From contig CAZNZM010000001.1 in assembly GCA_964577555.1 (NCBI GenBank), positions 55,178-87,177 on the forward strand: a DNA stretch of 32,000 bases, in the 5' to 3' direction. The translations under genes and the position numbers were made by a program. Under the pieces are notes generated by a model that saw nothing but the letters and a program-made list of their open reading frames with translations, did no database searches and was not told where the DNA came from. The number at the start of each line of letters is the position of its first letter. Within the stretch, counting starts at the first letter, position 1. The stretch is from an uncultured archaeon. Lineage in GTDB: Archaea > Iainarchaeota > Iainarchaeia > Iainarchaeales > Iainarchaeaceae. Shown piece after piece: positions 1 through 32,000 of this stretch.

Positions 1-3000
1 CTGGAATTGCAAAAAGATACAGGGAACTTTTTTCAGAGCATAACAAAGACAGAAACGCCACTATTTTTCAGCTCTTCAAGGAAATCATAGAAGGAAAACT
101 TGGTGAAATACCTGACCCTGAAAAGAGGCTTGAACAAGCGGTTAGAACATCTCTGGTGCTTGTTACCGAAGGAGTTGTTGTTGCACCGCTTGATGGCGTG
201 CCAAAAGTAAAAATAAGCACCAACCCTGATGGCTCAAAGTATGTTGATATTTACTTTGCAGGCCCTATAAGAGCGGCAGGCGGCACTGCCACGGTTTTCC
301 CGTTGATACTTGGGGATTATGCGAGGCAACTCATGCAACTTGACAGATACAAGCCAATAGATGACGAAGTTGAAAGGTATGTTGAAGAAATCAATATTTA
401 CGACGAAATAATCACGCGGCAATACAAGTTGAAAGATGATGAAATAAGAAAAATAATAAGAGGTTGTCCTGTCTGCGTGAATGGCGAACCAACCGAAGAC
501 AGAGAAGTTGTTGCACATCGCGATTTGCAAAGAATACCTTCAAATAGAATCAGAGGCGGAATGTGCCTTGTTATTTCAGAAGGAATTGGATTAAAAGCAA
601 TGAAAATAATGAAGCTTGCAAAAATGCTTGGATTGAATTGGAATTGGCTTGAATCAATCGCAAAAATAAGCAAAAGCGGTGGAAGTGAAAGCGAAATAAA
701 ACCAAATTATTCTTATCTTTCAAGAATCGCGGCAGGCCGGCCAATATTTTCATACCCTTCAAGGCTTGGCGGTTTTAGGTTGAGGTATGGCAGAGCCAGA
801 AATACTTGTGTAATGGCAAAAGGAATACACCCTGCAACAATGGTGTTGCTTGATGGTTTTATTGCTGTTGGAACCCAAATAAAAATAGAAAGACCTGGAA
901 AAAGTGCGGAAATGTTTCCTGTTGATTCAATTGACGGCCCAATAGTCAAGTTATTCTCCGGCGAAGTGAAAAAAATAAATAATGCAAATGAAGCAGAGCA
1001 AATAAAGGAAAAAGTAAAAGAAATACTTTTTCTAGGAGACATGCTTGTGAATGTAGGCGATTTCAGAAAAACTGCACACCCGCTAATGCCGGCTGGCTAC
1101 TGCCACGAATGGTGGGGCCTTGAAGTGGAAAAAGCGGTTTTTGAAAAAAAAAGCGATGAAAAATGGCTTGAAACAGCAAAAAACTCCAACAATGTAAGCG
1201 AAGAAATTGCATTAAAAGCATGTGAAGAACTTGGGGTTCCATTGCACCCTGAATACATTCATTATTATTCTGCCCTTTCAATTGAAGAAGCTTGCGAAAT
1301 AGTAATAGCGGTAAGAAGCGGGAGCAAAATTGAAAGCAACGGAAAAATAAACGCACTTGAAATTCAAAACTTGCCTAAAATCAAGGAAGCACTTGAAAAA
1401 GCAGGAATACCTCATAAAGTCGCAGGAGAAAAAATAATTATAAGCAATAGCGCGCATTCCTTTTTCAAGACTTTTGGAGGCGAAAATTCAAAAGAGCCTG
1501 ACAAATCATTGAACGTACTTGAATTGCTTTCAAACCTTTCAGGAATGAAAATCCGGGACAAAGCTGGAACATTTATAGGCTGCAGAATGGGAAGGCCTGA
1601 AGCATCAAGGCCGAGAAAAATGGTTGGAGACCCAATGGTGCTTTTTCCAATAGGTATTGCAGGAGGAAACACAAGGTCAATAAACAAAGCTGCTGAAACC
1701 CAAGGAATAATAGAAGCCGAAATAGCTTATTTTATTGATCCTGAAACAGGCAAGATTGAAGAGCAACCATTTTCGCTTACAACCGGAAAAAGGCTTGAGT
1801 TAATGAGAAAATGCAAAAAATGCAACAAATTTTCAAAAATGGAAAAGTGCCCCAATTGCAAATCGGAAACAGAAGCTTTTAATGCAAGAAAATTCAACAT
1901 TGCCGAACTCGTCAGGCAAGCCTCATCAAAGTTGAATGTGCCAACACCTCAATTAATAAAAGGTGTTAAAGGGCTTATAAACGCGGAAAAAATTCCAGAG
2001 CCTATAGAAAAGGGAATTTTGAGGGCAAGGCAAAACTTGCACATATTTAGAGATGGAACAATCAGATTTGAAATGCTCAACGCACCACTCACGCATTTTA
2101 AGCCTTCAGAAATAGGTCTTTCTGTTGAAAAAGCCAAAGAATTGGGTTACTTGTTTGATAAAAACGGCAAGGAACTCGTATCTGAAAACCAAATATGCGA
2201 ATTGTTTCCACAAGACATAATAGTAAATGAAACTGCCGGAGACTTTTTTGTAAGAGTGTCAAAATTTCTGGACGAAGAACTTGAAAAATTTTATGGATTG
2301 CCAAAATACTTTAATTATGATTCAAAAAACCAGTTGATTGGAGAATTATTTCTTGGTCTTGCACCGCATACATCCGCCGGAGTGCTTTGCAGATTGATAG
2401 GTTACTCCAAGGCAAAACTGAATTTTGCCCACCCGTATTTTCATCTTGCAAAAAGAAGAAATGCCGACGGAGACCAGGATTCTGTCATGATGTTGATGGA
2501 TGCCTTATTGAATTTCTCAAAAAACTATTTGCCTTCCACAAGAGGAGGCAGAATGGACGCCCCACTTGTCTTCACAGTCAACATAAATCCTTTGGAAATA
2601 GATGACGAAGCATACGAAGTTGAAGTATGCTCCAAATACCCTTTAGAATTATATGAAAAAAGCCTTATTCATGCTGATCCAAAAATAGATTCCATACCTA
2701 TTGTTGGCGACAGAATAGGAAAACCTGAACAATTTTATGGATTGGAGTATACGCACGAAACCTCAATATTTGATGCCGGACCAAAAGCATCAACATATGT
2801 AACATTCAAATCAATGGAAGAAAAAATGAAAGCCCAAGCCGCGATACAAGAAAAAATCAGGGCTATTGACAAAAAAGACTCTTTAGAAAGAGTTCTTGTA
2901 AGCCACTTTCTGCCTGATATAATAGGAAATACAAGGGCTTTCGCAAGACAGGAATTCAGGTGCTCAAAATGCAATACAAAGTATAGAAGAATTCCTCTTG

Positions 3001-3209
3001 TCGGGAAATGCACAAAATGCGGAGAAGAAAAACTTATTTTGACAATAGCACAGGGCTCGGTAAGAAAATACATGATAATAGCAAAAGAACTAATAGCAAA
3101 ACACAATTTAAGCAATTACTTAAAGCAAAGAATAGAATTGATAGAAAAAGAAATAGATTCAGTTTTTGCAACGGAAACAAAGCAAAAAAGCCTTTTGCAA
3201 TTCGTATAA
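1..3209 (+). CDS. polC: DNA polymerase D (archaeal Pol II) large subunit DP2, 5'-truncated by the window edge
   Basis: The frame of ORF 156..3209 stays open back to base 3, so the gene starts upstream of the window. The translation carries DP2 hallmarks: catalytic acidic motif HPYFHLAKRRNADGDQDSVMMLMD, two Cys4 zinc modules (CKKCNKFSKMEKCPNC and CSKCNTKYRRIPLVGKCTKCG), and GCRMGRPE. Confidence 0.95.
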   Translation, partial: GIAKRYRELFSEHNKDRNATIFQLFKEIIEGKLGEIPDPEKRLEQAVRTSLVLVTEGVVVAPLDGVPKVKISTNPDGSKYVDIYFAGPIRAAGGTATVFPLILGDYARQLMQLDRYKPIDDEVERYVEEINIYDEIITRQYKLKDDEIRKIIRGCPVCVNGEPTEDREVVAHRDLQRIPSNRIRGGMCLVISEGIGLKAMKIMKLAKMLGLNWNWLESIAKISKSGGSESEIKPNYSYLSRIAAGRPIFSYPSRLGGFRLRYGRARNTCVMAKGIHPATMVLLDGFIAVGTQIKIERPGKSAEMFPVDSIDGPIVKLFSGEVKKINNANEAEQIKEKVKEILFLGDMLVNVGDFRKTAHPLMPAGYCHEWWGLEVEKAVFEKKSDEKWLETAKNSNNVSEEIALKACEELGVPLHPEYIHYYSALSIEEACEIVIAVRSGSKIESNGKINALEIQNLPKIKEALEKAGIPHKVAGEKIIISNSAHSFFKTFGGENSKEPDKSLNVLELLSNLSGMKIRDKAGTFIGCRMGRPEASRPRKMVGDPMVLFPIGIAGGNTRSINKAAETQGIIEAEIAYFIDPETGKIEEQPFSLTTGKRLELMRKCKKCNKFSKMEKCPNCKSETEAFNARKFNIAELVRQASSKLNVPTPQLIKGVKGLINAEKIPEPIEKGILRARQNLHIFRDGTIRFEMLNAPLTHFKPSEIGLSVEKAKELGYLFDKNGKELVSENQICELFPQDIIVNETAGDFFVRVSKFLDEELEKFYGLPKYFNYDSKNQLIGELFLGLAPHTSAGVLCRLIGYSKAKLNFAHPYFHLAKRRNADGDQDSVMMLMDALLNFSKNYLPSTRGGRMDAPLVFTVNINPLEIDDEAYEVEVCSKYPLELYEKSLIHADPKIDSIPIVGDRIGKPEQFYGLEYTHETSIFDAGPKASTYVTFKSMEEKMKAQAAIQEKIRAIDKKDSLERVLVSHFLPDIIGNTRAFARQEFRCSKCNTKYRRIPLVGKCTKCGEEKLILTIAQGSVRKYMIIAKELIAKHNLSNYLKQRIELIEKEIDSVFATETKQKSLLQFV

Positions 3210-3527
3210 AAAATAAAATGTCTAAACGGCTCGCCAAAACAAACGACAAAAAAACAGCTTGGCACAAAAAAACTACTTGCAAAAAAAACAAATTCCAATT
3301 AAAAAAATGACAAAAAAAATAATTGACAAAAAAACTTGGCTAGCAATATCAAAAAAAACAAAAACTAATTATAAAATTAAAAAAAATAAAATTGGCTCAC
3401 AAAAAACAAACAACAAAAAAAAACAAAATTGACCAAAAAAAAAGGCTAGGCAAAAACAACCCAACAAAAAATAAAAAATTCGCTAGAAAAGAACACAAAA
3501 AAAACTAGTCATAAGAAAAGAAAAAAA
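3210..3527 (+). repeat. A-rich mosaic intergenic tract, locus 1
   Basis: Fills the whole spacer between convergent genes polC (stop 3207-3209) and the 255-aa gene (stop 3528-3530). A-runs of 5-10 nt are separated by short G/C islands: CGGCTCGCC 3227-3235, CTTGGCAC 3258-3265, CTTGGCTAGC 3335-3344, TTGGCTCAC 3392-3400, GGCTAGGC 3444-3451. It shares the modules AAATGTCTAAA-CGGCTCGCC, CAAATTCCAAT and ATAATTGACAAAAAAA with 21361-22245. Confidence 0.85.
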
Positions 3528-4295
3528 TTAAAGCTTATAAACAAGAAAAAAAACCACAATTATTGCTATTATTGCAATTACAATAACTTTAAAATCGTCG
3601 TTCAGCAAATTTTGTTCGGCGTGTTTGTTGTTGTGCTTTGAATTCCTGTTTGGCAAAAAAAAATCAGTGATTGAACTTATAAAACTTGATATATACTTAA
3701 ACCATGTCCTTAAATTGAACATTTCAACATAAGCTTCGCGAAGCAATTCTCGTTTGGTTTTTTCACGCAATGGTGGATTGCCGTCATCAATCAATTCTTT
3801 TGTAACTGCATTCATTGTTGCAACATAGTTTATTTCATCAAGAGTGTATTCCAATACCCAAAATGGAACAAAAACCAATTCTATTCCAGAAATTATTACA
3901 TTATTTTTTGAAGCATTTTTTTCAGCGGAGAGTGCAACCAAAATTATTTTTTTTACATCGCGTTCTGAAATTCTCGGGCTGACAACTTCATATTTGTAGT
4001 CATGCGTTATTTCGGGAGACTTGATTCCGGATTCCAATACAGCCAAGTCGGAAAGTTCATGCGCTATTTCGTTGGTGAAAGCGTTGAAGGCCGAGTGTCC
4101 TTTGGCAATTATTTTGGTTTTTCCTGAAGATTCATCGTATATGTCGTATGAAAAAAAATAATATGGCAGGTACTTTATGTAAACTCTTCCAAATTGGTAA
4201 TTATTATAGCCTTTTGAATCCAATATGCGAGAAACTGTTTCTTCTGCGGTGATTATTTCAACATTTACGGAAAAAGCTGGTTTCTCGAGAAGCAT
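3528..4295 (-). CDS. hypothetical tail-anchored membrane protein, co-transcribed downstream of sepF
   Basis: 255-aa ORF. The ATG at 4295 is preceded by GAGGA about 7 nt upstream, 13 bp after the sepF stop. Soluble N-terminal region, with one C-terminal hydrophobic helix (FKVIVIAIIAIIVVFFLVYKL) at the extreme C-terminus. I recognise no family. Confidence 0.7.
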   Translation of the reverse strand: MLLEKPAFSVNVEIITAEETVSRILDSKGYNNYQFGRVYIKYLPYYFFSYDIYDESSGKTKIIAKGHSAFNAFTNEIAHELSDLAVLESGIKSPEITHDYKYEVVSPRISERDVKKIILVALSAEKNASKNNVIISGIELVFVPFWVLEYTLDEINYVATMNAVTKELIDDGNPPLREKTKRELLREAYVEMFNLRTWFKYISSFISSITDFFLPNRNSKHNNKHAEQNLLNDDFKVIVIAIIAIIVVFFLVYKL

Positions 4296-4308
4296 TTTTT
4301 TTCCTCAA

Positions 4309-4665
4309 TTACTCCCTTCTCTTAATGATTTTTACTCTGCTAGGAGTAACAAGGACTTTTTCTTGGCTTACCCTTGCAATGTCACCGTTTATGCTTTGGA
4401 CTCCTGCTTTTATGCTATTCACCAATTCTTTGAGTTTTTGCGCGTTTCTTTTGCTCAAATCAGCAATATTTACTAACACTATGTTGCCTTTTTTTGCTTC
4501 TTCAAGCACCAAATCCCTGTCGGATTCATTGTTAAGTGTTATAGGCTTAACAAAGGCATCAGCGTCTTCGTAAGGATCTTCTTGTTCAGTGTCCATTTTA
4601 TTCAAAAATTCTTCTACATCAAACTCATCCTTTTTTCTTCCAATGAGTTTTTCCATGAAAGCCAT
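4309..4665 (-). CDS. sepF: cell division protein SepF homolog (archaeal FtsZ membrane anchor family)
   Basis: 118 aa, the typical archaeal SepF length. Acidic N-terminal part followed by the SepF core pattern (AKKGNIVLVNIADLS ... INGDIARVSQEKVLVTPSRVKI). Strong SD GGAGGGGTGG 8 nt upstream of the ATG. Confidence 0.85.
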   Translation of the reverse strand: MAFMEKLIGRKKDEFDVEEFLNKMDTEQEDPYEDADAFVKPITLNNESDRDLVLEEAKKGNIVLVNIADLSKRNAQKLKELVNSIKAGVQSINGDIARVSQEKVLVTPSRVKIIKRRE

Positions 4666-4921
4666 TCAATAACCACCCCTCCAAATGAAAAAATTCTTAT
4701 AGAAATTTGTATGAAGCCTATTTTAACCTTTTGTTTAAAAGAAAAAATTGAAAAAAATGCTGAAAAAAACTAAAAAAATGCCAAAAATAACGGCTTGAAA
4801 TCAATTCGTGTTTTTTTGCCGTGTGAAAAATTAGAAATCCGAACTTAATACCGGAATTGGTTTAATTCCACAACTCAATTTTTTTTTATTAAGTTGCATT
4901 TATTTTGAATAGGGGGTTTTT
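4666..4921. promoter_or_regulatory. divergent sepF / orc1-cdc6 control region; weak candidate replication origin
   Basis: 256-bp spacer with an A/T-rich stretch at 4735-4795, an inverted repeat GGAATT-GGTTT-AATTCC at 4853-4869, and TTCCACAAC at 4866-4874. The SD boxes of both flanking genes lie at its ends. No clear pair of ORB elements was found. Confidence 0.35.
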
Positions 4922-6124
4922 GTGGAGAATATTTTTGAAAAAGAATTTGCTAAAGAAACTATTTTTGTTGACCGCAATTTGATGACTCCGCATTATACTC
5001 CGAAAGTGTTGCCTTTCAGGGAGCCTTTTATTGAAAGCACTTCAAAAATATTGAGTGCCACCTTGAAAGGCGCGAAAGCCGACAATATTTTCATTTATGG
5101 CAAAACAGGAACAGGCAAAACCAGTGTGACAAAGCATGTCATGAATCAATTGCTTGAATTTGCTTCTTCTAAAAATGTGCCGGTTGAAGGCAATTATGTA
5201 AATTGCAGAAATCACAACAGCAAATACAGAGTCATGATTAAAATAGTGAAAGACCTTTATCCGGAAGAAAATTTCCTTGGTTTTTCCGCTGCTTTTATTT
5301 ATGAAAAACTCTTGGCTTACGCGAGAAAGGGCAAACAATTGGTAATTGTCTTGGACGAAATTGACAAAGTCAAGGATCTTGATGAACTTGTTTACGGGCT
5401 TACCAGGGCAAATGATGAATTGGATAAAGGCAGCATAACTTTGATTGGAATCTCAAACAATTTAATGTTCAAAGAAAGACTTGACCCTCGAACAAAAAGC
5501 AGTTTATGCCAACATGAAATGGTTTTCCCGCCTTACAATGCACAAGAATTAGTAGAAATTTTAAAACAAAGAACCGCAATAGCGTTCAAGCCTAATACTG
5601 TTGACGAATCAGCAATAAATTTGGCCGCGGCAATTGCGGCGCAGGAATCCGGGGATGCAAGAACTGCAGTAATGCTTTTGCTTCGCGCTGGAGAACTTGC
5701 AGACATGAAAGGAGGCATAGTCACTGACAAAGAAGTGCAAAAAGCAAAAAAACAGGTAGAGGAAGAGCTTATAATTAACATGGTTTCAACATTGCCTGAA
5801 CAACAACAGCTTGTATTGTATTCAATAGCGTGCTTGTCATTGCAAAAAAAACCGATGCAAAAAATTACTGGGGAAAAAGAAACAGGAGTATTATTTTCAG
5901 GAGAAATTTATGACGAGTATTGCAAAATTTCAAAAAAATTCAAAGAGCAAACAGTCAGTGCTCGTTGGTATAGGGAATATATAACAGAACTTGAAATGTA
6001 TGGCTTGATTTACACCGCAAATTCGGGCAAAGGGATTAAAGGGCAAACAACCCTAATAAAACTGGATTTTGAAGCTGAAAAAATAAAAAATTTGATAGAG
6101 AAGCAATTATTGGAAGTGAATTGA
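4922..6124 (+). CDS. cdc6: Orc1/Cdc6 replication initiator
   Basis: 400 aa. Walker A YGKTGTGKT, Walker B VIVLDEID, and sensor region GDARTAVMLLLRAGELA followed by a winged-helix-like C-terminus. GTG start 5 nt after GGGGG (4912-4916). Confidence 0.95.
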   Translation: MENIFEKEFAKETIFVDRNLMTPHYTPKVLPFREPFIESTSKILSATLKGAKADNIFIYGKTGTGKTSVTKHVMNQLLEFASSKNVPVEGNYVNCRNHNSKYRVMIKIVKDLYPEENFLGFSAAFIYEKLLAYARKGKQLVIVLDEIDKVKDLDELVYGLTRANDELDKGSITLIGISNNLMFKERLDPRTKSSLCQHEMVFPPYNAQELVEILKQRTAIAFKPNTVDESAINLAAAIAAQESGDARTAVMLLLRAGELADMKGGIVTDKEVQKAKKQVEEELIINMVSTLPEQQQLVLYSIACLSLQKKPMQKITGEKETGVLFSGEIYDEYCKISKKFKEQTVSARWYREYITELEMYGLIYTANSGKGIKGQTTLIKLDFEAEKIKNLIEKQLLEVN

Positions 6125-18118: not shown

Positions 18119-18760
18119 TTATTCGCTTGAAGCCCATGATTTTATTATTTCAAGTGATTTTATTTGTTCGTCCAAATCCTTTATTTTCGCTTCAATATCC
18201 TTTAATTGGGCTTCCGACACGTCAATTCTGAAGTCTTGAAGAATGTTTGCGTAATTTCCTACTTTTTTGTTTTTGTAAACAAAACTTTTTTGCACTGTTT
18301 CAACAAGGTTTTTTCTGTATTCAATGTCTTCAAGAAACATTTTTACAAGCGGTTTGTATCTTGGATCTGCTGCAAGGTGAGCTGGCAAGCCTACTGCTTC
18401 AGCATCGGCCTTGTATTCTTTGTCGGTAAGCATTTTGGAGACATGCTTCCAATAAATTGGCTCGGACAATTTCAAAACATGGTGCTTCAGGTGATAGTTT
18501 TTGGCTTCGTTTAGCTTTTTTCTCCAATCGGCTTCCTTTTTCAAAAAAAGTTTTCTCCTGTTCTTTAATTCTTCTATTTGAGTTTGGATTCGCAATGGAG
18601 AAGGGTATATCAAGCGAGGCCAAGGTTTTTTTGAAGGCAAAGCCGATATTACCCCGCCTCGTTCAAAGTATTTTTTCAATGCATTGATTCTTTCATCGTT
18701 CTTTGGAAAATCAAACCTTTTTTGGAATTCTTCAAAAGAACTTATTATATTTGATGTCAT
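18119..18760 (-). CDS. hypothetical protein (213 aa) with a C-terminal coiled coil
   Basis: Clean ORF with an ATG start and ordinary non-repetitive composition. Diverges from nac across a 62-bp spacer. No family recognised. Confidence 0.6.
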   Translation of the reverse strand: MTSNIISSFEEFQKRFDFPKNDERINALKKYFERGGVISALPSKKPWPRLIYPSPLRIQTQIEELKNRRKLFLKKEADWRKKLNEAKNYHLKHHVLKLSEPIYWKHVSKMLTDKEYKADAEAVGLPAHLAADPRYKPLVKMFLEDIEYRKNLVETVQKSFVYKNKKVGNYANILQDFRIDVSEAQLKDIEAKIKDLDEQIKSLEIIKSWASSE

Positions 18761-20640: not shown

Positions 20641-21360
20641 TTGGTGATAAATTTGAAAGAAAAAAGCCTTGTATTGGTTGAATTTACAGGCAAAGAATTA
20701 GTTACTGGAAAGATTTTTGATACCACTTCGGAAGCTGTTGCCAAAGAAGTTGGCTTGTACAAAGAAAACGCGATTTTCAAGCCAGTGCCTGTAATAGTTG
20801 GAAACGGGGATGTTATAAAAGGCATTGATGAGGCTCTCAAAGAAATGAAGGAAGGCGAAGAGAAGGTTATCAAGCTTGGACCTGAAAAGGCTTTTGGAGA
20901 AAGGCGAAAAGACCTGGTTGTGCTTGTGCCATTGGCTGAATTTACAAACAGAAAAATCAAGCCAGTTAATGGTTTGATTGTTGAGATGAATGGAATGTAT
21001 GGAAAGGTTACAACAGTTTCTGGTGGCAGAGTAAGAGTTGATATGAACAACGACCTTGCTGGAAAAGAAGTTGAATATAAATTGAAAGTTATAAAAGAAA
21101 TCAAGGATTCCTCGGAAAAAGCACAAGTTATTGCTGAAAAGTTTTTCCCGCTTAAAGAAAAAGTCCAGACAAAAATAGAGGCCGACGTAATTAAAGTTAA
21201 AATTCCTAAAGAGATTGGGAAACAGCTTGCTCCTCTTGTTCCTGCTTTTACAAAAACAGTTAAAGAAATTATTCCTGAACTCAAGAGTGTTGAAATAGTG
21301 GAATCTTTTGATGCAAAACCAGAAAGCGAAAAAAATGAAAAAAAGCAATTTGAAATTTAA
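20641..21360 (+). CDS. FKBP-type peptidyl-prolyl cis-trans isomerase, archaeal long form with insert-in-flap and C-terminal extension
   Basis: 239 aa. FKBP core strings VIVGNGDVIKGIDEALKEMKEGEEK and DMNNDLAGKEVEYKLKVIKE, with an inserted flap segment between them. TTG/GTG start. Confidence 0.85.
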   Translation: MVINLKEKSLVLVEFTGKELVTGKIFDTTSEAVAKEVGLYKENAIFKPVPVIVGNGDVIKGIDEALKEMKEGEEKVIKLGPEKAFGERRKDLVVLVPLAEFTNRKIKPVNGLIVEMNGMYGKVTTVSGGRVRVDMNNDLAGKEVEYKLKVIKEIKDSSEKAQVIAEKFFPLKEKVQTKIEADVIKVKIPKEIGKQLAPLVPAFTKTVKEIIPELKSVEIVESFDAKPESEKNEKKQFEI

Positions 21361-22245
21361 AAAAATAAAAAGTTGGCCCAACAAAAGATAGACCTGCAAA
21401 AAACAAAAAAACAAAACTTCAAACCAAAAAAAATAAAAACAAAAATTGTCTAAAAAAAACGGCTCACAAAACAAACACAAAAAAAACAAAAAAAACAACC
21501 AACAAAAAAAATGACAAAAAAAACAGCTGATAAAAAAAATCTTTACCAAAAAAAATAAAAATTGTCTAAAAAAATGGCTCACAAAAAAAACAATGACAAA
21601 AAAAATGGCTCGCCAAAAAAAATTAAAAAAAAACGTTCAAAAAAAAATCATGAAAAAAATTGCCAAAAAAAACCCGGCTCGCAAAAAAAAACAAATTCCA
21701 ATCAAAAAAACAATTTCAAATAAAAAAACAAAACTTCAAACAAAAAAAATAAAATAAACTAAAAAAAACAAAAAATGGCTTCAAGAAACAAAACAAAAAA
21801 AACTGCTCACAAAAAAAATAAACAAATTAAAAAAAACAAAAAAACCAATAAAAAAAATTAAGAAAAAAAACTTGGCACGAAAAAAAATAAGCCACAAAAA
21901 ATAATTGACAAAAAAAAGACCACAAAAAAAATGGCTTGCAAAACAAACAACAAAAAAATAACAAAAAAACAACTCGCAAAAAAAACAAACTCCAAAAATA
22001 AAACAAAAAAATAATGACAAAAAAAATCGTCCCGCAAAAAAAACAAAAAAACCAAAAAAAAGCTCACAAAAAAAACAAACAGAAAAAGGCAAAAAAAAGC
22101 CGAGACAAAGCAAAAAAAATAAATTTTTCTAAAAAAATTGAAAAAAGAATTTTATTCCAAAAACAAAAACAAGAAAACAAAAAAAATGTTTAAAAATATG
22201 GGGCAAAAAAACTGCAAAAAAAGCCTAGCTAGCAAAAAAATGCCT
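21361..22245 (+). repeat. A-rich mosaic intergenic tract, locus 2 (largest, about 0.9 kb)
   Basis: Starts at the base after the FKBP stop. Almost only A and C on the + strand until about 22120. About a dozen GGCTCRC-like islands each precede an A-run: 21461, 21576, 21607, 21676, 21777, 21804, 21872, 21933, 21971, 22028, 22061, 22223. Internal direct repeats: ACCAAAAAAAATAAAA..ATTGTCTAAAAAAA-GGCTCAC at 21423-21467 and 21545-21582; AAAAAAACAAAACTTCAAAC-AAAAAAAATAAAA at 21404-21438 and 21722-21755. Confidence 0.9.
21593..21659 (+). repeat. about 65-bp module ATGACAAAAAAAATGGCTCGCCAAAAAAAATTAAAAAAAAACGTTCAAAAAAAAATCATGAAAAAAA, copy A
   Basis: Near-identical to 31820-31884. Differences are one G/A change in GGCTCRC and small A-run or AC length changes. 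Confidence 0.9.
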
Positions 22246-22272
22246 TAAAGCAATTAAATTTTAACTTCTAAT

Positions 22273-22290
22273 AAACCTTTATAAAGGTTT
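22273..22290. promoter_or_regulatory. perfect 18-bp palindrome AAACCTTTATAAAGGTTT centred on a TATA box, upstream of psmB
   Basis: Read directly. The TTTATAAA core sits about 40 bp upstream of ATG 22324, which is appropriate for a BRE/TATA promoter with a short leader. Confidence 0.6.
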
Positions 22291-22323: not shown

Positions 22324-22968
22324 ATGATGGCAACAGAACATGTATTGAAAGACCTTAAGACTGGGACAACCACTGTTGGAATAGTGTATAGCAGTGGTGT
22401 TGTGCTTGCAGCTGACAAAAGGGCTTCTATGGGGCATATAGTCTATGAAGAAGAATCTGAAAAAATTTATGACATAAACGGGATTTTTGCTGTTACAAAC
22501 GCGGGAAATGTAGGCGATAGTTTGGCTGTAATCAGGTTTTTGAAAGCACAAGCCAAGATTTACGAGCTTGAAAGGGAAGAAAAAATGACTGCAAAAGCCG
22601 CGGCAAATTTGTTGTCAAACGTGCTTAGCGCAAGCAGGTATTATCCTTTTATTTGCCAATTTTTAGTAGGTGGTTTTAATGGAAAACCGGAGCTCTTTGA
22701 TGTCACTCCTTTCGGGGCAATGCTTGAAAGAAAAAACTATGCAGTGTCTGGTTCAGGGACAGAACAAGCCTTGGCAACAATTGATTTGGGTTATAAAGAA
22801 GGCATGAATGAAAAGGAAACAATTGCTTTGGCTGTAAAGGCAATTGAGGCGGGCAAAAGAAGGGATGTTTTTTCTGGCGGAAAGGGAGCAACTGTTTTTG
22901 TTGTGGACTCCAAAGGAGTAAGACAAATACCTGAAGACATTGTTGCAAAATTCACCAAAGGCGACTAA
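22324..22968 (+). CDS. psmB: proteasome subunit beta
   Basis: 214 aa. A short propeptide is followed by the active-site threonine context LKTGTTTVGIVYSSGVVLAADKRAS. Typical Ntn-hydrolase beta-subunit layout. Confidence 0.95.
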   Translation: MMATEHVLKDLKTGTTTVGIVYSSGVVLAADKRASMGHIVYEEESEKIYDINGIFAVTNAGNVGDSLAVIRFLKAQAKIYELEREEKMTAKAAANLLSNVLSASRYYPFICQFLVGGFNGKPELFDVTPFGAMLERKNYAVSGSGTEQALATIDLGYKEGMNEKETIALAVKAIEAGKRRDVFSGGKGATVFVVDSKGVRQIPEDIVAKFTKGD

Positions 22969-23027: not shown

Positions 23028-24926
23028 ATGGAATATCTAAAAGAAGTAAGGGAAATTGTACAACAAGTAGTACCAAAAGAGGCAGGGGTTACAAGCGTAG
23101 AATTGGAAGGCCCTGAAATCTCTATTTATACCGAAAACCCAAAGGCATTCCATGAAAACGAAAATTACGTAAAAGAAGTAGCCCAAATGCTGAAGAAAAA
23201 AGTTAATATAAGGGCTGACAAATCTTTGCTAATAAACGAAAAAGAGGCAAAAGAAAAAATTCTTGAAATCATTCCTGAAGACGCACAAGTTTCTGATATA
23301 CAATTTTCTGAGCCTTTCAGCGAAGTTTGGATTGAAGCTCTCAAACCTGGTTTGGTAATTGGCAAGAGTGGTGAAACCACAAAGAGGATAATACTTGAAA
23401 CAGGTTGGACTCCAAAAATATTAAGGGCGCCTACTTCTGCTAGTGAAATACTCAAAGGAATAAGACATCATCTTGTAAAATACAGTTCTGAAAGAAAAAA
23501 ATTTTTGACAGAAACAGCAAGGAAAATTTATAGCGAAAAAGCACAACCAAGTTGGATAAGGCTTACTCCTTTGGGCGGATTCAGGCAGGTTGGCAGGAGT
23601 TGCATTTTGCTTGAAACAAGAAAAACCAAAATTCTTTTGGATTGCGGCATCAATGTTGGAGCCCAAACTCCTGAAGAAATGTATCCATACCTTGATGCAA
23701 TAAGGTTTCCAATAAATGAACTTGACGCAGTTGTGCTTAGCCATGCACATATGGACCACTGCGGATTCATACCTTACTTGTTCAAAGTAGGATTCAACGG
23801 GCCTGTTTATTGCACAGAACCTACAAGGGACTTGAGTACATTGCTTCTCTTTGATTACTTGGACATTTCAGCAAAAGACAACAAAGAAGCGCCTTTCAGC
23901 GAAAGAGATGTTAAAGAAATGTTGAAACACTGCATTACAAGAGAATATCGAGAAGTAACTGATATAGCACCAGACATGAGGCTTACTTTCCACAATGCGG
24001 CTCACGTACTTGGCAGTGCTTCAGTTCATTTGCATATAGGTGAAGGAGCACACAACCTTGTTTATGGGGCTGACATAAAATATGGTTTTACAAGGCTTTT
24101 CAACAATGTGGATATAAATTATCCTAGGCTTGAAACTCTTATAATTGAAAGCACTTATGGTGCAAAAGAAGACATAATGCCACAAAGAGAAGAAACTGAA
24201 GTTCAATTGCTGAAAGTTTTGCAAGAAACGACAAACCAAGGCGGCTCGGTTTTAATACCTGTGTTTGCGGTCGGCAGAGCACAAGAACTCCAGCTTGTTA
24301 TTGAAAATTATTATAGAAAAGGACTTATTGATCCGGAAGTCAAGGTTTATATAGACGGCATGACAAAAGAGAGTTCTGCAATCCACACAGCCTACCCAGA
24401 ATATTTGAGAAATGCAGTGCAAACAAGAGTTCTACAAAACGACAGCCCCTTTACAAGCAACATATTTGAAATCGCAAAACCTGAAGAAAGAGACGCGATT
24501 TGCCAAAAAGGCAGGGCAATAATCCTTGCTTCAAGCGGAATGCTTACCGGCGGTTCAAGCCTCCAATATTTTTACAAATTGGCTGAAAACCCTATTAATA
24601 CGCTTATATTTGTAGGTTACCAAGGGGAAGGAACTCTTGGAAGAAAAATACAGGGTGGTTTAAGAAGCCTGCCGATTACGGAAAACGGCGGCAAAACAAG
24701 AAAGCTTGATATTAATATGCGAGTAGAAACGATTGAGGGGTTTTCAGGACATTCTGACAGGCCTCAACTTGTCAGTTATGTAAGGGCTTTGAAACCAAAA
24801 CCGAAAAAGATTTTAACAAATCACGGCGAAGCAACAAAAACGGTTGAACTTGCAAAATTCTTTTCCGCAAAAATGTCAATCAATTCACAATCAATAAGAA
24901 ACCTTGACAGCCTAAGGTTAAAATAA
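23028..24926 (+). CDS. fttA: aCPSF1/FttA-type beta-CASP ribonuclease with N-terminal KH domains
   Basis: 632 aa. KH-type GLVIGKSGETTKRI, metallo-beta-lactamase HxHxDH (LSHAHMDHCG), and a beta-CASP region ending with GFSGHSD and NHGE. Confidence 0.95.
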   Translation: MEYLKEVREIVQQVVPKEAGVTSVELEGPEISIYTENPKAFHENENYVKEVAQMLKKKVNIRADKSLLINEKEAKEKILEIIPEDAQVSDIQFSEPFSEVWIEALKPGLVIGKSGETTKRIILETGWTPKILRAPTSASEILKGIRHHLVKYSSERKKFLTETARKIYSEKAQPSWIRLTPLGGFRQVGRSCILLETRKTKILLDCGINVGAQTPEEMYPYLDAIRFPINELDAVVLSHAHMDHCGFIPYLFKVGFNGPVYCTEPTRDLSTLLLFDYLDISAKDNKEAPFSERDVKEMLKHCITREYREVTDIAPDMRLTFHNAAHVLGSASVHLHIGEGAHNLVYGADIKYGFTRLFNNVDINYPRLETLIIESTYGAKEDIMPQREETEVQLLKVLQETTNQGGSVLIPVFAVGRAQELQLVIENYYRKGLIDPEVKVYIDGMTKESSAIHTAYPEYLRNAVQTRVLQNDSPFTSNIFEIAKPEERDAICQKGRAIILASSGMLTGGSSLQYFYKLAENPINTLIFVGYQGEGTLGRKIQGGLRSLPITENGGKTRKLDINMRVETIEGFSGHSDRPQLVSYVRALKPKPKKILTNHGEATKTVELAKFFSAKMSINSQSIRNLDSLRLK

Positions 24927-25260
24927 GCGAACCAGATAAAATTGCAAAAAAAAATTGTCTCAAAAAACAAATTCAAAAAAAAACAAAAACCAAAATAAAA
25001 AAAATAAAGTTGGCTGACTAAAAAAATAAAATTAAGAGTTTCAACAAAAACAATTGCAAAAATTTCAAAAAACACACAAATTATACATTACAAATAAAAA
25101 GCAAACAAAAAGATTCAAAGATAAAGCGACAATAAAACTATTAATATACATAATCGATTTTTTTGAAAAAAAAAACACTAAAAAATTTCCAAAAAAAAAA
25201 CTACTTAAACATAAAAATAAACTAAAAAAACCTGAAAAAACCTCTTTTTGCCATAAAAAG
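24927..25260 (+). repeat. A-rich mosaic intergenic tract, locus 3 (more degenerate)
   Basis: Begins right after the fttA stop. Contains AAAAATTGTCTCAAAAAACAAATTCAAAAAAAAAC and ATAAAGTTGGCTGAC, which relate to modules in loci 1 and 2. Carries a T7 run at 25157-25163. Confidence 0.75.
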
Positions 25261-25303
25261 TAATTTATTAGAGTTATTAGGCTAAAAAAGACTTATAACG
25301 GCT

Positions 25304-25328
25304 TTTTATAGAAAAATATTTATATAAG
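25304..25328 (+). promoter_or_regulatory. TATA-rich promoter candidate (TTTTTATAG ... ATATTTATATAAG)
   Basis: Two TATA-like boxes lie about 50-75 bp upstream of ATG 25379. No annotated gene otherwise uses them. Confidence 0.4.
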
Positions 25329-25378
25329 TTGGAATGTTGTAAGTATGCTTTGAAATAAAGTGGTCAGGTCGGTTCAAA

Positions 25379-25522
25379 ATGCACGAAGATAAATCAAAAG
25401 AAAACGTCTTACATGATGCAGTTGAACTGGCTAAAAGCTTTGAAAATGGCGGAGAGAGGCTAAATGATGAAGAAATAGGCCTATCAAAACCCTCGATTAA
25501 ATTTAATACTCGGAGCTTATAA
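25379..25522 (+). CDS. tentative 47-aa ORF (MHEDKSKENVLHDAVELAKSFENGGERLNDEEIGLSKPSIKFNTRSL), or a small ncRNA occupying the same unit
   Basis: Below the 60-aa cut-off of the ORF track; I translated it by hand. It is bracketed by the promoter candidate at 25304-25328 and the palindromic terminator at 25580-25599. Composition is visibly less AT-rich than the flanks. Confidence 0.3.
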   Translation: MHEDKSKENVLHDAVELAKSFENGGERLNDEEIGLSKPSIKFNTRSL

Positions 25523-31734: not shown

Positions 31735-32000
31735 TAAAAAGAAAAAAATAAAATAATCGTCAAAAAAAACTCGACAAAAAAATAAAAAAAATGCCTCAAA
31801 AAAAACTAATTAAATTAAAATGACAAAAAAATGGCTCACCAAAAAAAATTAAAAAAAAGTTCAAAAAAAAATCATGAAAAAAAATGACAAAAAAAACAGC
31901 TCACAAAAAAACAACGACAAAAAAAATGGCTCACAAAAAATAATTTCAAACAAAAAAAACACAAAAAAAACAAAAATCAAAAAAAACAATTCAAAAAAAA
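31735..32000 (+). repeat. A-rich mosaic intergenic tract, locus 4 (runs off the window end)
   Basis: Begins right after stop 31732-31734. GGCTCAC-type islands at 31833, 31898 and 31928. Contains ATGACAAAAAAAACAGCTCAC (matching 21511-21530), CAACGACAAAAAAAATGGCTCAC (matching 21591-21613) and AATAATTTCAAACAAAAAAAAC (matching 21709-21729). Confidence 0.85.
31820..31884 (+). repeat. about 65-bp module, copy B (ATGACAAAAAAATGGCTCACCAAAAAAAATTAAAAAAAAGTTCAAAAAAAAATCATGAAAAAAAA)
   Basis: Near-identical to 21593-21659 in the same orientation, 10.2 kb away. Confidence 0.9.

What the first reader, a model, noticed from the sequence alone, without database searches (positions are those of the whole stretch)
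21361..22245. About 0.9 kb almost T-free A/C-rich mosaic tract with about a dozen GGCTCRC + A-run islands in an otherwise compact genome
Seen: from the base after the FKBP stop to the psmB promoter, the + strand is nearly all A with C second. G and T are confined to short islands with the consensus (T)GGCTC[AG]C followed by A7-9. Variants include TGCTCAC, AGCTCAC, AACTCGC, GGCTTGC and TTGGCACG. Internal direct repeats of 33-45 bp exist (21423-21467 vs 21545-21582; 21404-21438 vs 21722-21755). Island spacing is irregular, about 26-115 bp. Most other spacers in the window are well under 100 bp, so a tract this size is unlikely to be neutral filler. Inference, all untested: it could be an array of binding sites for a chromatin or regulatory protein; a barrier that presents many oligo-T terminators only to minus-strand transcription; a genome-encoded A-rich 3' extension of the upstream mRNA, since the + strand has no oligo-T terminator for about 760 nt; or a slippage-prone expansion.
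Basis: partly seen in the sequence, partly recalled or inferred. Interest (0 to 1): 0.7.

Follow-up and report, generated by a model that had tools for sequence, protein, structure and literature searches.

The report
Fast-evolving A-rich intergenic repeat array
The 0.9 kb after the FKBP gene of a small DPANN archaeon is real, non-coding DNA from a young, one-strand-only A-rich repeat family that grows and shrinks between a gene's stop codon and its terminator in two sister species; most of it is dispensable at this locus and its function, if any, is unknown.

Summary
The tract is real, lies at the stated coordinates and is far from random. GGCTCRC occurs 4 times against 0.01 expected. A-runs pile up at exactly 8 (30 runs against 5 expected, none of 10 or more). 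Four assemblies reproduce every base.

It is not a one-off. The window holds four such tracts, all A-rich on the + strand, and each starts at the stop codon of a + strand gene. They share modules. One tract ends in an 85-nt tandem repeat.

It is not coding, not a structured RNA, not phased bent DNA, and not a CRISPR, MITE or viral element.

The organism is an Iainarchaeota (DPANN) archaeon. A sister species (about 85.5% nucleotide identity) has the same module family, but with different sizes at different loci. Its FKBP-psmB spacer is only 282-289 nt, while its aCPSF1, PolD and NOG1 3' spacers are enlarged. More distant relatives lack the modules.

Best reading: a lineage-restricted, polar, minisatellite-like repeat that expands by duplication and A-run slippage inside 3' untranslated spacers. 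The sense strand lacks U-tracts until a double U4 site at 22124-22153. The antisense strand carries 47 runs of T7-9. Function is unproven.

The parts
20641..21360 (+). FKBP-type peptidyl-prolyl isomerase gene; its TAA stop codon abuts the tract
   Evidence: Pfam FKBP_C and FKBP26_IF; ORF list
21361..22245 (+). Tract T2 (the finding): a non-coding array of short words separated by A7-9 runs
   Evidence: Composition; motif and A-run statistics; no long ORF and stops in all frames; reproduced by independent assemblies
21400..22085 (+). Approximate species-specific expanded core, absent from the 282-289-nt spacer of the sister species
   Evidence: BLAST against L219 breaks at 21365 and resumes at 22258; spacer sequences compared by eye; boundaries are approximate
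21461..21467 (+). GGCTCAC core, preceded by ATAAAAACAAAAATTGTCT-A8 and followed by AAAACAAACAC
21576..21582 (+). GGCTCAC core, preceded by ATAAAAATTGTCT-A7
21607..21613 (+). GGCTCGC core
21676..21682 (+). GGCTCGC core
21804..21810 (+). One-mismatch core TGCTCAC
21933..21939 (+). One-mismatch core GGCTTGC, followed by AAAACAAACAAC
22061..22067 (+). One-mismatch core AGCTCAC
21590..21682 (+). Roughly 100-nt module shared at about 90% identity with tract T4 (31817-31905); differences are mostly A-run indels that shift the reading frame
   Evidence: Weighted local alignment score 112 against a Markov null of 34.9 +/- 7.6
21718..21890 (+). Degenerate tandem duplication, 68-nt unit x 2.5 copies, 76% matches
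   Evidence: TRF
22124..22153 (+). First oligo-T pair on the sense strand (T5 at 22124-22128, T4 at 22150-22153); inferred FKBP terminator. A T5 sits at the corresponding distal position in the sister species (L219 9253)
   Evidence: two-U4-tract rule from PMC8716108 (inference, no expression data)
22278..22285 (+). psmB TATA box (TTTATAAA); from about 22258 onward the promoter aligns with the sister species
22324..22968 (+). psmB (proteasome beta subunit), followed by a T7 run 19 nt after its stop codon
3210..3527 (+). Sibling tract T1, starting at the stop codon of the PolD DP2 gene (convergent with the gene at 3528-4295); GGCTCRC at 3228 and 3394
   Evidence: spanned by three other assemblies
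24927..25240 (+). Sibling tract T3, starting at the aCPSF1 stop codon. The 5' half is A-rich and poorly conserved. The 3' half, including a T7 run at 25158, is conserved in L014, L026 and L219. T3 is only weakly related to the module family.
31735..32000 (+). Sibling tract T4, starting at the stop codon of a 206-aa gene. It runs off the window and continues at least 237 nt further as an 85-nt tandem repeat.

Best explanation
The tract is non-coding DNA from a lineage-restricted, strand-polar, minisatellite-like repeat family. Its grammar is short words separated by A7-9 runs. Recurring words are ATAAAATTGWC, NGGCTCRC, CAAACAC, CAACCAAC/CCAAGCC and (T)GAC.

The family lives in the interval between a gene's stop codon and its first oligo-T terminator. 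At this locus it has grown from an ancestral A-rich spacer of about 230-290 nt to 885 nt. Growth occurred by tandem and dispersed duplication, by exchange with sibling tracts, and by A-run slippage. I infer that the ubiquitous A8 runs act as microhomology for template switching, which would explain the mosaic order of the words.

Shown: the tract is real, non-random and repeated in four places. It is non-coding and unstructured. It is young, of variable size, and restricted to two sister species.

Inferred: because the sense strand has no U4 tract for 763 nt, RNA polymerase leaving FKBP probably transcribes the whole tract as a U-poor, unstructured, A-rich 3' extension. It would then stop at the double U-tract at 22124-22153. 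Any antisense transcription would meet 47 runs of T7-9 and stop at once.

The bulk of the tract is most likely tolerated passenger DNA, 'silent' on the sense strand, rather than a locus-specific functional element. The conserved GGCTCRC core may be what the copying process, or some binding factor, needs.
For: Non-randomness.

Family: four co-oriented tracts that share modules. Alignment scores against a Markov null are T2-T4 112 vs 34.9 +/- 7.6, T1-T2 64.5 vs 30.8 +/- 5.1, and T1-T4 53.1 vs 25.2 +/- 3.5.

Duplication: 13 direct-repeat families and 0 inverted. Tandem units in T2 are 68 nt x 2.5, 42 nt x 2.1, 36 nt x 2.0 and 31 nt x 2.2. T4 has an 85-nt unit x at least 3.7 copies at 92%.

Non-coding: there are 8, 9 and 16 stop codons in the three + frames. 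The GGCTCRC cores fall in all three phases. The T2 and T4 copies of the shared module differ by frame-shifting A-run indels. A 54-aa K-rich ORF has no homologue.

No RNA structure: the + strand MFE is -46 kcal/mol for 885 nt, weaker than its shuffles (z = +1.6). Rfam gives nothing even at E <= 0.1.

Young and variable: the sister species (about 85.5% nt identity) has the same words, but its FKBP spacer is 282-289 nt. Its aCPSF1 3' tract is about 620 nt, its DP2 3' spacer 611 nt, and it has a roughly 570-nt tract after NOG1, where the window species has only a 147-nt spacer. The next relative, L014, has a 228-nt spacer with no cores.

Restriction: a profile HMM of the module gives multiple hits only in the two species and none in 63 other DPANN loci, about 0.9 Mb.

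Concerted evolution: CAACCAAC and TTGTCT occur only in the window species; CCAAGCC only in the sister.

Slippage: sister-species strains that are 99.4% identical differ in the tracts by single-A indels and one 8-nt indel, with no indels in 3.5 kb of coding sequence.

Placement: ten of 19 genes have a T5+ run within 50 nt of the stop codon. The four tract-bearing genes have it at +549, +764, +232 and not within 503 nt. In both species the tract is followed by an oligo-T run.

Termination rules: PMC8716108 and PMC11616081.
Against: There is no expression data, so transcription through the tract is an inference.

The GGCTCRC core, with its A/G alternative, is retained in both species while the surrounding words drift. 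Pure neutral turnover does not predict this. It points to some constraint, either a binding site or a requirement of the copying mechanism.

The sharp A8 mode could reflect a functional spacing rather than descent from A8-bearing units.

A streamlined DPANN genome would be expected to delete useless DNA, yet tracts make up 5.6% of this window. The total load is similar in both species, about 2 kb over the compared regions, although it sits at different loci.

All tract-bearing genes lie on the same absolute strand. Polarity relative to genes therefore cannot be separated from polarity relative to the chromosome.

Sense-strand T5 runs do occur inside the sister species' tracts (5 in 2250 nt), so U-tract avoidance is not absolute.
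Confidence: 0.55

Rival explanations
1. Functional array of sites for a sequence-specific DNA- or RNA-binding factor. The (T)GGCTCRC cores, displayed on rigid or unstructured A-run spacers, would recruit or titrate a protein. Candidates are a chromatin or regulatory protein on DNA, or an RNA-binding protein on the 3' UTR. Total site number in the genome, not the locus, would be what matters.
For: The core is strongly over-represented: 4 against 0.01 expected, and 7 against 0.47 with one mismatch. It is always in one orientation, with 27 GGCTC on the sense strand against 2 antisense across both species' tracts. It is kept in two species at about 85.5% nt identity, although the tracts themselves no longer align. 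The core is embedded in a longer recurring context, ATAAAATTGWC-A7-N-GGCTCRC-A4-CAAAC. Tract load is similar in the two species despite different locations.
Against: Spacing is irregular, 25-115 nt, with no helical phasing. Many cores are degenerate. The bulk of this tract is absent from the sister species at the same locus. Conservation of a core is equally expected for a repeat homogenised by gene conversion or copied by a site-recognising enzyme. No candidate binding factor was identified.
Confidence: 0.2
2. Selected one-way transcriptional element. The tract would exist to let sense transcription run on from FKBP toward psmB-aCPSF1, free of U-tracts and so invisible to intrinsic and aCPSF1/FttA termination. 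At the same time it would abolish any antisense or divergent transcription with dozens of T7-9 runs. It would also provide a built-in A-rich 3' tail that alters mRNA stability.
For: There is no T4+ run on the sense strand for 763 nt, then two U4 tracts 26 nt apart. There are 47 runs of T7-9 on the antisense strand. All tracts start at a stop codon and end before an oligo-T run in both species. At T1 the convergent gene 3528-4295 meets a T7 run at +1. Published rules say aCPSF1/FttA binds U-rich RNA and that two U4 tracts are the minimal efficient signal.
Against: One or two T-runs would suffice to stop antisense transcription; 47 are not needed. The absence of T-runs is not significant given 12% T: shuffles expect 0.43 T5+ and 1 is observed. 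The sister species manages the same gene pair with a 282-nt spacer. That species' tracts also contain some sense-strand T5 runs. No expression data are available.
Confidence: 0.12
3. Chromatin or DNA-mechanics element. Long arrays of rigid A7-9 tracts would exclude archaeal histones or bend the DNA, creating a permanently open or boundary region between transcription units.
For: There are 47 A7-9 runs in 885 bp. From established knowledge, poly(dA:dT) disfavours wrapping by eukaryotic and archaeal histones.
Against: There is no 10-11 bp phasing. Run-start spacing is 7-38 nt and the best Fourier periods are weak, at 13.5-14.25, so intrinsic curvature is not designed in. Strand polarity (A never T, cores never inverted) is irrelevant to duplex mechanics and is left unexplained. 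The size is highly variable between sister species. Whether this organism has histones was not determined.
Confidence: 0.06
4. The tract encodes lysine-rich peptides, possibly via transcriptional or ribosomal slippage on A-runs. Gene callers annotate ORFs of 54 and 59 aa here.
For: JGI gene calls of 54, 59, 69 and 62 aa lie in the tracts. Many cores read ATG-GCT-CRC (Met-Ala-His/Arg), with 9 ATGGCT in the window species' tracts.
Against: Stop codons occur in every frame: 8, 9 and 16. The cores fall in all three phases. Copies of the same module in T2 and T4 differ by frame-shifting indels. The 85-nt tandem unit is not a multiple of 3 and gives a 16-aa ORF. The 54-aa ORF has no homologue among 5.8 billion proteins. 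The minus-strand ORFs are poly-Phe artefacts.
Confidence: 0.03
5. Assembly artefact, either a collapsed or chimeric low-complexity join.
For: Every other contig breaks inside T2 or T4. Only the window's assembly spans about 21547-21561, which coincides with an internal direct repeat.
Against: All parts of T2 are reproduced base for base by contigs from three other samples, produced by JGI assemblies and by Logan. FKBP-psmB adjacency is confirmed by synteny in L014, L219, L220, L229 and L230. T1 is spanned intact by three assemblies. The sister species has the same family.
Confidence: 0.03

Closest known systems
Interspersed intergenic direct-repeat families of bacteria, e.g. Staphylococcus aureus STAR elements (PMC3532100, seen; details from my own knowledge)
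   Same: A short G/C-containing core recurs as a direct repeat at intervals within A/T-rich intergenic DNA. It is present at several loci, with copy number and locus occupancy varying between close relatives. It is non-coding and of unknown function.
   Different: The organism here is an archaeon and the core is different. The spacers are A7-9 homopolymer runs. Strand polarity relative to the upstream gene is strict, and placement is specifically between stop codon and terminator. I know of no evidence for these properties in STAR.
Minisatellites / VNTR tandem repeats
   Same: T4 ends in an 85-nt unit repeated at least 3.7 times at 92%. T2 contains degenerate tandem units of 68, 42, 36 and 31 nt. 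Strains differ by indels. The tracts break short-read assemblies.
   Different: Most of T2 is a mosaic of shuffled words rather than a regular head-to-tail array. The same modules occur at loci 10-28 kb apart. All copies are co-oriented.
Archaeal oligo-T / U-tract terminators acting with aCPSF1 (FttA) (PMC8716108, PMC11616081)
   Same: The antisense strand is a dense series of T7-9 runs. Each exceeds the U4-U5 signal that stops archaeal RNA polymerase and binds aCPSF1. The sense strand ends in a two-U4-tract site of the canonical kind.
   Different: On the sense strand the tract is the opposite of a terminator, being depleted of U-tracts. A terminator needs one or two runs, not 47. No antisense gene reads into T2.
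Poly(dA:dT) nucleosome-excluding tracts of eukaryotic and histone-bearing archaeal promoters (own knowledge)
   Same: Many rigid A-runs of 7 or more concentrated in an intergenic region.
   Different: The tract is 0.9 kb long and lies downstream of genes rather than at the promoter. It is strictly one-stranded in polarity, carries sequence-specific islands, and shows no phasing.
Bacterial Rho-utilisation (rut) regions (own knowledge)
   Same: The transcript would be C>G (C 15.5%, G 7.2%), unstructured and untranslated.
   Different: Archaea have no Rho. The analogous factor, FttA/aCPSF1, prefers U-rich RNA, and this RNA is U-poor. It is A-rich rather than C-rich.
REP/BIME elements and MITEs
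   Same: Short non-coding repeats that multiply in intergenic regions of prokaryotes.
   Different: Those elements are palindromic or have terminal inverted repeats and target-site duplications. This tract has 0 inverted repeats and no symmetry.

Membership tests
Protein-coding gene (lysine-rich protein) | A continuous open reading frame | tested here: not met
   8, 9 and 16 stop codons in the three + frames; longest + ORF 59 aa
Protein-coding gene (lysine-rich protein) | Reading frame conserved between copies, and homologues elsewhere | tested here: not met
   T2 and T4 copies of the shared module differ by 1-2-nt A-run indels; GGCTCRC falls in all three phases; no homologue of the 54-aa ORF
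Structured non-coding RNA | Stable or conserved secondary structure, or a match to a known family | tested here: not met
   MFE -46 kcal/mol per 885 nt, z = +1.63 against shuffles; 0 inverted repeats; Rfam: nothing at gathering score or at E <= 0.1; no tRNA
CRISPR array | Identical repeats of fixed length at regular spacing, with unique spacers | tested here: not met
   Irregular spacing of 25-115 nt, degenerate 7-nt cores, and 'spacers' that are A-runs and shared words
MITE / IS-derived element, REP/BIME | Terminal inverted repeats or palindromic units | tested here: not met
   0 inverted repeat pairs; cores and words occur in one orientation only
Minisatellite / tandem repeat | Head-to-tail copies of a unit of 10 nt or more | tested here: met
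   T4: 85 nt x 3.7 copies, 92% matches, score 484. T2: 68 nt x 2.5 at 76%, plus units of 42, 36 and 31 nt. This covers only part of T2; the rest is a mosaic.
Minisatellite / tandem repeat | Length polymorphism between close relatives | tested here: met
   963 vs 282-289 vs 228 nt at the FKBP-psmB spacer; single-A and 8-nt indels between 99.4%-identical strains
Dispersed intergenic direct-repeat family (STAR-like) | The same short core recurring in several intergenic regions of one genome | tested here: met
   8 of 10 +-strand GGCTCRC hits lie in tracts T1, T2 and T4; profile-HMM hits in T2, T4 and the sister-species tracts
Archaeal oligo-T terminator (sense strand) | U4 or longer tract(s) shortly after the stop codon | tested here: not met
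   First T4+ is at +764; most other genes have T5+ within 50 nt
Archaeal oligo-T terminator (antisense strand) | U4 or longer tracts in the transcript | tested here: met
   61 runs of T5 or longer, 47 of T7 or longer, on the - strand. Whether any antisense transcript exists is not testable here.
Intrinsically bent DNA (phased A-tracts) | A-tracts repeated in phase with the helix (10-11 bp) | tested here: not met
   Run-start spacing is 7-38 nt and broad; no 10-11 peak in the Fourier or autocorrelation analysis
Replication origin (DUE plus ORB repeats) | A single locus next to orc1/cdc6 with origin-recognition boxes | tested here: not met
   Four tracts spread over 29 kb; T2 lies 15 kb from orc1/cdc6 (4922-6124). 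ORB motifs were not searched systematically.
Viral or mobile-element-borne sequence | Matches in viral contig collections | tested here: not met
   The 18-nt module pattern gives 0 hits; the two-core pattern gives 5 unrelated coding repeats
Binding-site array for a specific factor | A protein or RNA that binds the core | not testable with these tools
   Only indirect evidence: over-representation, fixed orientation, and retention of the core in two species

The most novel reading that the evidence does not exclude
The A-run-punctuated GGCTCRC modules are a new kind of polar, self-propagating element, or a host-used device, specific to archaeal 3' untranslated regions. It would copy itself only into stop-codon-to-terminator intervals in the sense orientation. 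This could happen through a transcription- or RNA-linked copying step that recognises the GGCTCRC core. Alternatively, it could be maintained as a genome-encoded A-rich 'tail' that sets mRNA fate in an organism whose terminator factor reads U-tracts.
Probability: 0.12. Interest if true: 0.8.

Novelty: new variant of a known kind. Interest (0 to 1): 0.48.

Why it matters
DPANN archaea are regarded as having streamlined genomes with little spare DNA. Here about 5.6% of a 32-kb stretch is a young, rapidly turning-over repeat with strict strand polarity. It sits exactly where 3' untranslated RNA is made.

If it is passive, it is a clear example of runaway low-complexity expansion being tolerated in a minimal genome. 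It is also a practical hazard. It breaks every short-read assembly at the same places and generates spurious lysine-rich and poly-Phe gene calls.

If the conserved core or the U-tract-free polarity is functional, the tract would give a natural test-bed for how archaeal transcription termination (U-tracts plus aCPSF1/FttA) and 3' UTR length are controlled. The aCPSF1 gene itself carries one of these tracts.

I found no description of such tracts in the searched literature.

Tried and rejected
(1) Metagenome-wide pattern scan with AAAAAAATGGCTCRCNAAA. 

(2) Search with a K-rich ORF to find other tracts through spurious gene calls. Nothing was found.

(3) Exact look-ups of FKBP with two alternative start codons. 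Neither is on record. NAC and SepF look-ups worked instead.

I got about 15 kb more by way of SecF. No new tract appeared there, so polarity relative to genes and polarity relative to the chromosome remain unresolved.

(5) Global alignment of T2 to the L014 spacer is unreliable in low-complexity sequence. I make no claim about exact ancestral segments.

(6) A-rich stretches in more distant low-GC relatives (L022, L054, L057 and others) turned out to be Lys/Glu-rich coding sequence, not this family.

(7) Helical phasing and bent DNA: rejected.

(8) Transposon-footprint idea, in which A8 would be an 8-bp target-site duplication. Rejected because the words show no inverted symmetry.

(9) Hairpin idea. 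GGCT...AGCC and GCTCGG...CCGAGC pairs in sister-species modules give only 4-6-bp stems with A-rich loops of 8-18 nt. The 3' half is replaced by CAACCAAC in the window species, so I dropped it.

(10) Complementarity of the core to a tRNA 3' end, or resemblance to the 16S 3' end, was considered by eye only. It is short and unconvincing and was not pursued.

(11) Viral origin: no support.

(12) A candidate fifth tract after a tRNA synthetase gene (L225 18831-19000) is an ordinary short spacer plus a K-rich C-terminus.
Full report
**What is there**

The window comes from an Iainarchaeota (Diapherotrites, DPANN) archaeon of about 34% GC. Its aCPSF1 (23028-24926) is 86-89% identical to 'Candidatus Iainarchaeum' MAG proteins. 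Gene order around the finding is NAC, a 447-aa gene on the minus strand, FKBP (20641-21360), the tract, psmB (22324-22968) and aCPSF1.

The tract runs from the base after the FKBP TAA stop codon to about 22245. The psmB TATA box lies at 22278. Composition is A 65.3%, C 15.5%, T 12.0% and G 7.2%. 'A/C-rich, G-poor' is therefore right, and 'almost T-free' is overstated.

What does hold is that the + strand has no run of four or more T from 21361 to 22123. The first such runs are T5 at 22124 and T4 at 22150.

**Is it more than chance?**

Yes.
- Exact GGCTCRC occurs four times in the tract. Dinucleotide-preserving shuffles of the tract expect 0.01, and none of 1000 shuffles reaches four.
- Allowing one mismatch gives seven sites against 0.47 +/- 0.67 expected.
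- Across the window there are 11 hits against 2.35 expected. Ten are on the + strand, and eight of those lie in A-rich tracts.
- A-run lengths are not geometric. There are 30 runs of exactly A8, 14 of A7, 3 of A9 and none longer. Shuffles give about 5 A8 runs and a tail reaching 16.

The tract reads like text, with short words separated by A8 'spaces'.

**It is real DNA**

Contigs from three other JGI samples and one Logan assembly match the window base for base over every part of the tracts they cover. The only difference is one A9/A8 at the last bases of a contig end.

All of those contigs nevertheless end inside this tract (21547, 21561/2, 21589, 22000) or inside the tract at the window's right end (31881, 32160, 32237). 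FKBP-psmB adjacency is confirmed by synteny in five related contigs. Only the window's assembly crosses about 21547-21561, which coincides with an internal repeat. The tract could therefore be longer than assembled.

**It is one of a family**

The window has four such tracts, all A-rich on the + strand, with no T-rich mirror image:
- T1, 3210-3527, after PolD DP2
- T2, the finding
- T3, 24927-25240, after aCPSF1
- T4, 31735 to beyond the window end, after a 206-aa gene

Each begins at the stop codon of a + strand gene.

Using a scoring scheme that down-weights A:A matches, the tracts share modules far beyond a Markov null:

| Pair | Observed score | Null |
|---|---|---|
| T2-T4 | 112 | 34.9 +/- 7.6 |
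| T1-T2 | 64.5 | 30.8 +/- 5.1 |
| T1-T4 | 53.1 | 25.2 +/- 3.5 |

T3 is only weakly related. About 100 nt at 21590-21682 match 31817-31905 at roughly 90%. T4 continues past the window as an 85-nt unit repeated at least 3.7 times at 92%. T2 holds older, degenerate tandem units of 68, 42, 36 and 31 nt.

Aligning all cores shows a longer recurring context: ATAAAATTGWC, A6-8, N-GGCTCRC, A4-8, CAAAC(A)C, A8, CAACCAAC, A8, (T)GAC.

**What it is not**

- Not coding. There are 8, 9 and 16 stop codons in the three + frames, and the longest ORF is 59 aa. The cores fall in all three phases. Copies of the same module differ by frame-shifting A-run indels. The 85-nt unit is not a multiple of three. A 54-aa ORF called by JGI has no homologue. 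The long minus-strand 'ORFs' are poly-Phe artefacts.
- Not a structured RNA. The + strand folds at -46 kcal/mol for 885 nt, worse than its own shuffles (z = +1.6). Rfam finds nothing even at E <= 0.1, and there are no tRNAs.
- Not phased bent DNA. Run spacing is broad, with no 10-11-bp signal.
- Not a CRISPR array, a MITE or a REP element. There is no regular spacing and no inverted symmetry.
- Not found in viral contigs.

**Comparative evidence**

The closest GTDB species (L014, aCPSF1 86%) has a 228-nt FKBP-psmB spacer. That spacer is moderately A-rich and has no GGCTCRC.

A much closer sister species was recovered through the aCPSF1 protein cluster. Its aCPSF1 is 97% identical at the protein level, and genes are about 84-87% identical at the nucleotide level. 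It carries the same module family, distributed differently:

| Locus | Window species | Sister species |
|---|---|---|
| FKBP-psmB spacer | 963 nt | 282-289 nt |
| aCPSF1 3' A-rich tract | about 150-200 nt | about 620 nt |
| PolD DP2 3' spacer | 318 nt | 611 nt |
| After NOG1 | 147-nt spacer with a T7 terminator, no tract | about 570-nt tract |

Alignment between the two species stops at 21365 and resumes at 22258, so the tract evolves much faster than the genes and the promoter.

A profile HMM of the module gives multiple significant hits only in these two species. It gives none in 63 other DPANN loci, about 0.9 Mb.

Each species has its own word variants: CAACCAAC and TTGTCT in the window species, CCAAGCC and TTGAC in the sister. 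The GGCTCRC core, with both A and G versions, is common to both.

Two strains of the sister species that are 99.4% identical differ in the tracts by single-A indels and one 8-nt indel. They have no indel in 3.5 kb of coding sequence.

**Placement and polarity**

In this genome ten of 19 genes have a T5+ run within 50 nt of the stop codon. The four tract-bearing genes have it at +549, +764, +232 and not within 503 nt.

In both species each tract is followed by an oligo-T site:
- the T5/T4 pair at 22124-22153 here, and a T5 at the corresponding distal position in the sister spacer
- a conserved T7-8 run after the aCPSF1 tract in four genomes
- T8 runs after the sister's NOG1 tract

The expansions therefore sit between stop codon and terminator, A-rich on the sense strand of the upstream gene.

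Published work shows that archaeal termination uses U4-or-longer tracts and that aCPSF1/FttA binds U-rich RNA, with two U4 tracts being the minimal efficient site (PMC8716108, PMC11616081). By inference, the sense transcript would run through the tract as a U-poor, unstructured, A-rich 3' extension. Any antisense polymerase would meet 47 runs of T7-9.

This is inference only, and there are three caveats.
- Given 12% T, the absence of T-runs is not itself statistically remarkable.
- The sister's tracts do contain a few sense-strand T5 runs.
- All tract-bearing genes lie on one absolute strand, so gene-linked and chromosome-linked polarity cannot be separated. The orientation does not flip across the orc1/cdc6 upstream spacer, where an origin would be expected. 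That is weak evidence against a leading/lagging-strand cause.

**Best explanation and rivals**

I favour, at about 0.55, a lineage-restricted, polar, minisatellite-like repeat. It expands and contracts by duplication, inter-tract exchange and A-run slippage within 3' spacers. It is tolerated there because on the sense strand it has no promoter, terminator, structure or ORF. The many A8 runs are plausible microhomology for template switching, which would explain the shuffled, mosaic order of the words. That step is inferred.

The main rival, at about 0.2, is that the conserved GGCTCRC core is a binding site and total site number matters rather than locus. The remaining rivals are:
- a selected one-way transcription device or built-in A-rich tail, about 0.12
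- a chromatin or DNA-mechanics element, about 0.06
- coding for lysine-rich peptides, about 0.03
- an assembly artefact, about 0.03

Against any locus-specific function, roughly 685 nt of this tract are simply missing at the same locus in the sister species. Against pure neutrality stand three points: the retained core, the sharp A8 mode, and the persistence of about 2 kb of such DNA in the compared regions of both streamlined genomes.

**Comparison with known systems and verdict**

The nearest analogues are bacterial interspersed intergenic direct repeats such as STAR elements, and ordinary minisatellites. The tract meets the tested defining features of a tandem or dispersed repeat family. 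It fails those of genes, structured RNAs, CRISPR arrays, MITE/REP elements, phased A-tracts, origins and sense-strand terminators.

I found no description of such A-run-punctuated, stop-to-terminator, strand-polar arrays in archaea in four literature searches.

I rate it a new variant of a known kind, of moderate interest (0.48). About 12% probability remains for a genuinely new polar 3'-UTR element or device.

Noticed in passing
window 25370-25513 (+), with promoter around 25305-25330: A 47-aa ORF (MHEDKSKENVLHDAVELAKSFENGGERLNDEEIGLSKPSIKFNTRSL) sits behind a strongly conserved TTTATATA promoter. It is conserved downstream of aCPSF1 in L014, L026 and L219 (motif KSFE-GG-RL...KPSIKFN). It has no Pfam match.
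   Followed up: partly
window 156-6124 plus L221/L225 (left of the window): Replication gene cluster: NOG1, UPF0147, PolD DP1 and PolD DP2, then tract T1, then a 255-aa gene and SepF on the other strand, then Orc1/Cdc6 (4922-6124). The 256-nt spacer upstream of orc1/cdc6 (4666-4921) is a likely replication origin. It contains a small A7-plus-word stretch (4741-4792) and a TTCCAC-containing inverted repeat. ORB elements were not analysed.
   Followed up: no
window 31984-32000, continuing in L213 1082-1400 and L001 10440-10614: Tract T4 ends in an 85-nt unit (CAATTC-A9-TCT-A8-TGGCTCGC-AAAA-CAAACAC-A9-CAACCAAC-A10-TAAC-A9) repeated at least 3.7 times at 92%. Every available contig stops inside it, so copy number and the right-hand neighbour are unknown.
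   Followed up: partly
window 21593-21757, 22014-22193, 25054-25263; L001 gene calls at 47-211, 468-647, 3508-3717, 10328-10516: Public annotation calls lysine-rich ORFs of 54-69 aa inside the tracts. ORF scanning gives poly-Phe ORFs of up to 294 aa on the opposite strand (20698-21582). These are artefacts of the composition and would inflate 'hypothetical protein' counts.
   Followed up: yes
window 24927-25240 vs L014 11900-12290, L026 1325-1740, L219 12600-12850: The 3' half of the spacer after aCPSF1 has blocks conserved across four genomes: TACATAAYCG followed by a T6-8 run, ACTTAAACATAAAA, and AGGTTATWAGGC. The termination-factor gene therefore has a conserved long 3' region ending in an oligo-T. 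Possible autoregulation was not examined.
   Followed up: partly
window 8520-15839 (+): Giant 2439-aa protein with only NPCBM_assoc/DUF11-type domains detected. It is probably a surface protein and is conserved in the sister species.
   Followed up: no
window 17700-17737: A 38-nt convergent spacer between the KaiC-like gene and a 106-aa gene contains a GC hairpin (TTGCCCAAAAGGGCAA) flanked by an A-run on one side and a T-run on the other. It looks like a compact bidirectional terminator, in contrast with the tracts.
   Followed up: no
L219 10001-10084; protein P0121: In the sister species the aCPSF1 gene is called with a 28-aa N-terminal extension that overlaps psmB. This is probably a start-codon mis-call, because the 632-aa form (P0122) is called elsewhere. 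L219 also contains a run of N at about 18680-18689.
   Followed up: partly
L228 8437-8380, 2805-2740; L219 12163-12235: Sister-species modules carry an extra 3' part: CCAAGCC-A7-GAC-A6, then an A/T palindrome (TTTTAACGGTTAAAA or TTTTAATTTTTAAAA). This part is absent or degenerate in the window species. It introduces sense-strand T4-5 runs inside the tracts.
   Followed up: partly
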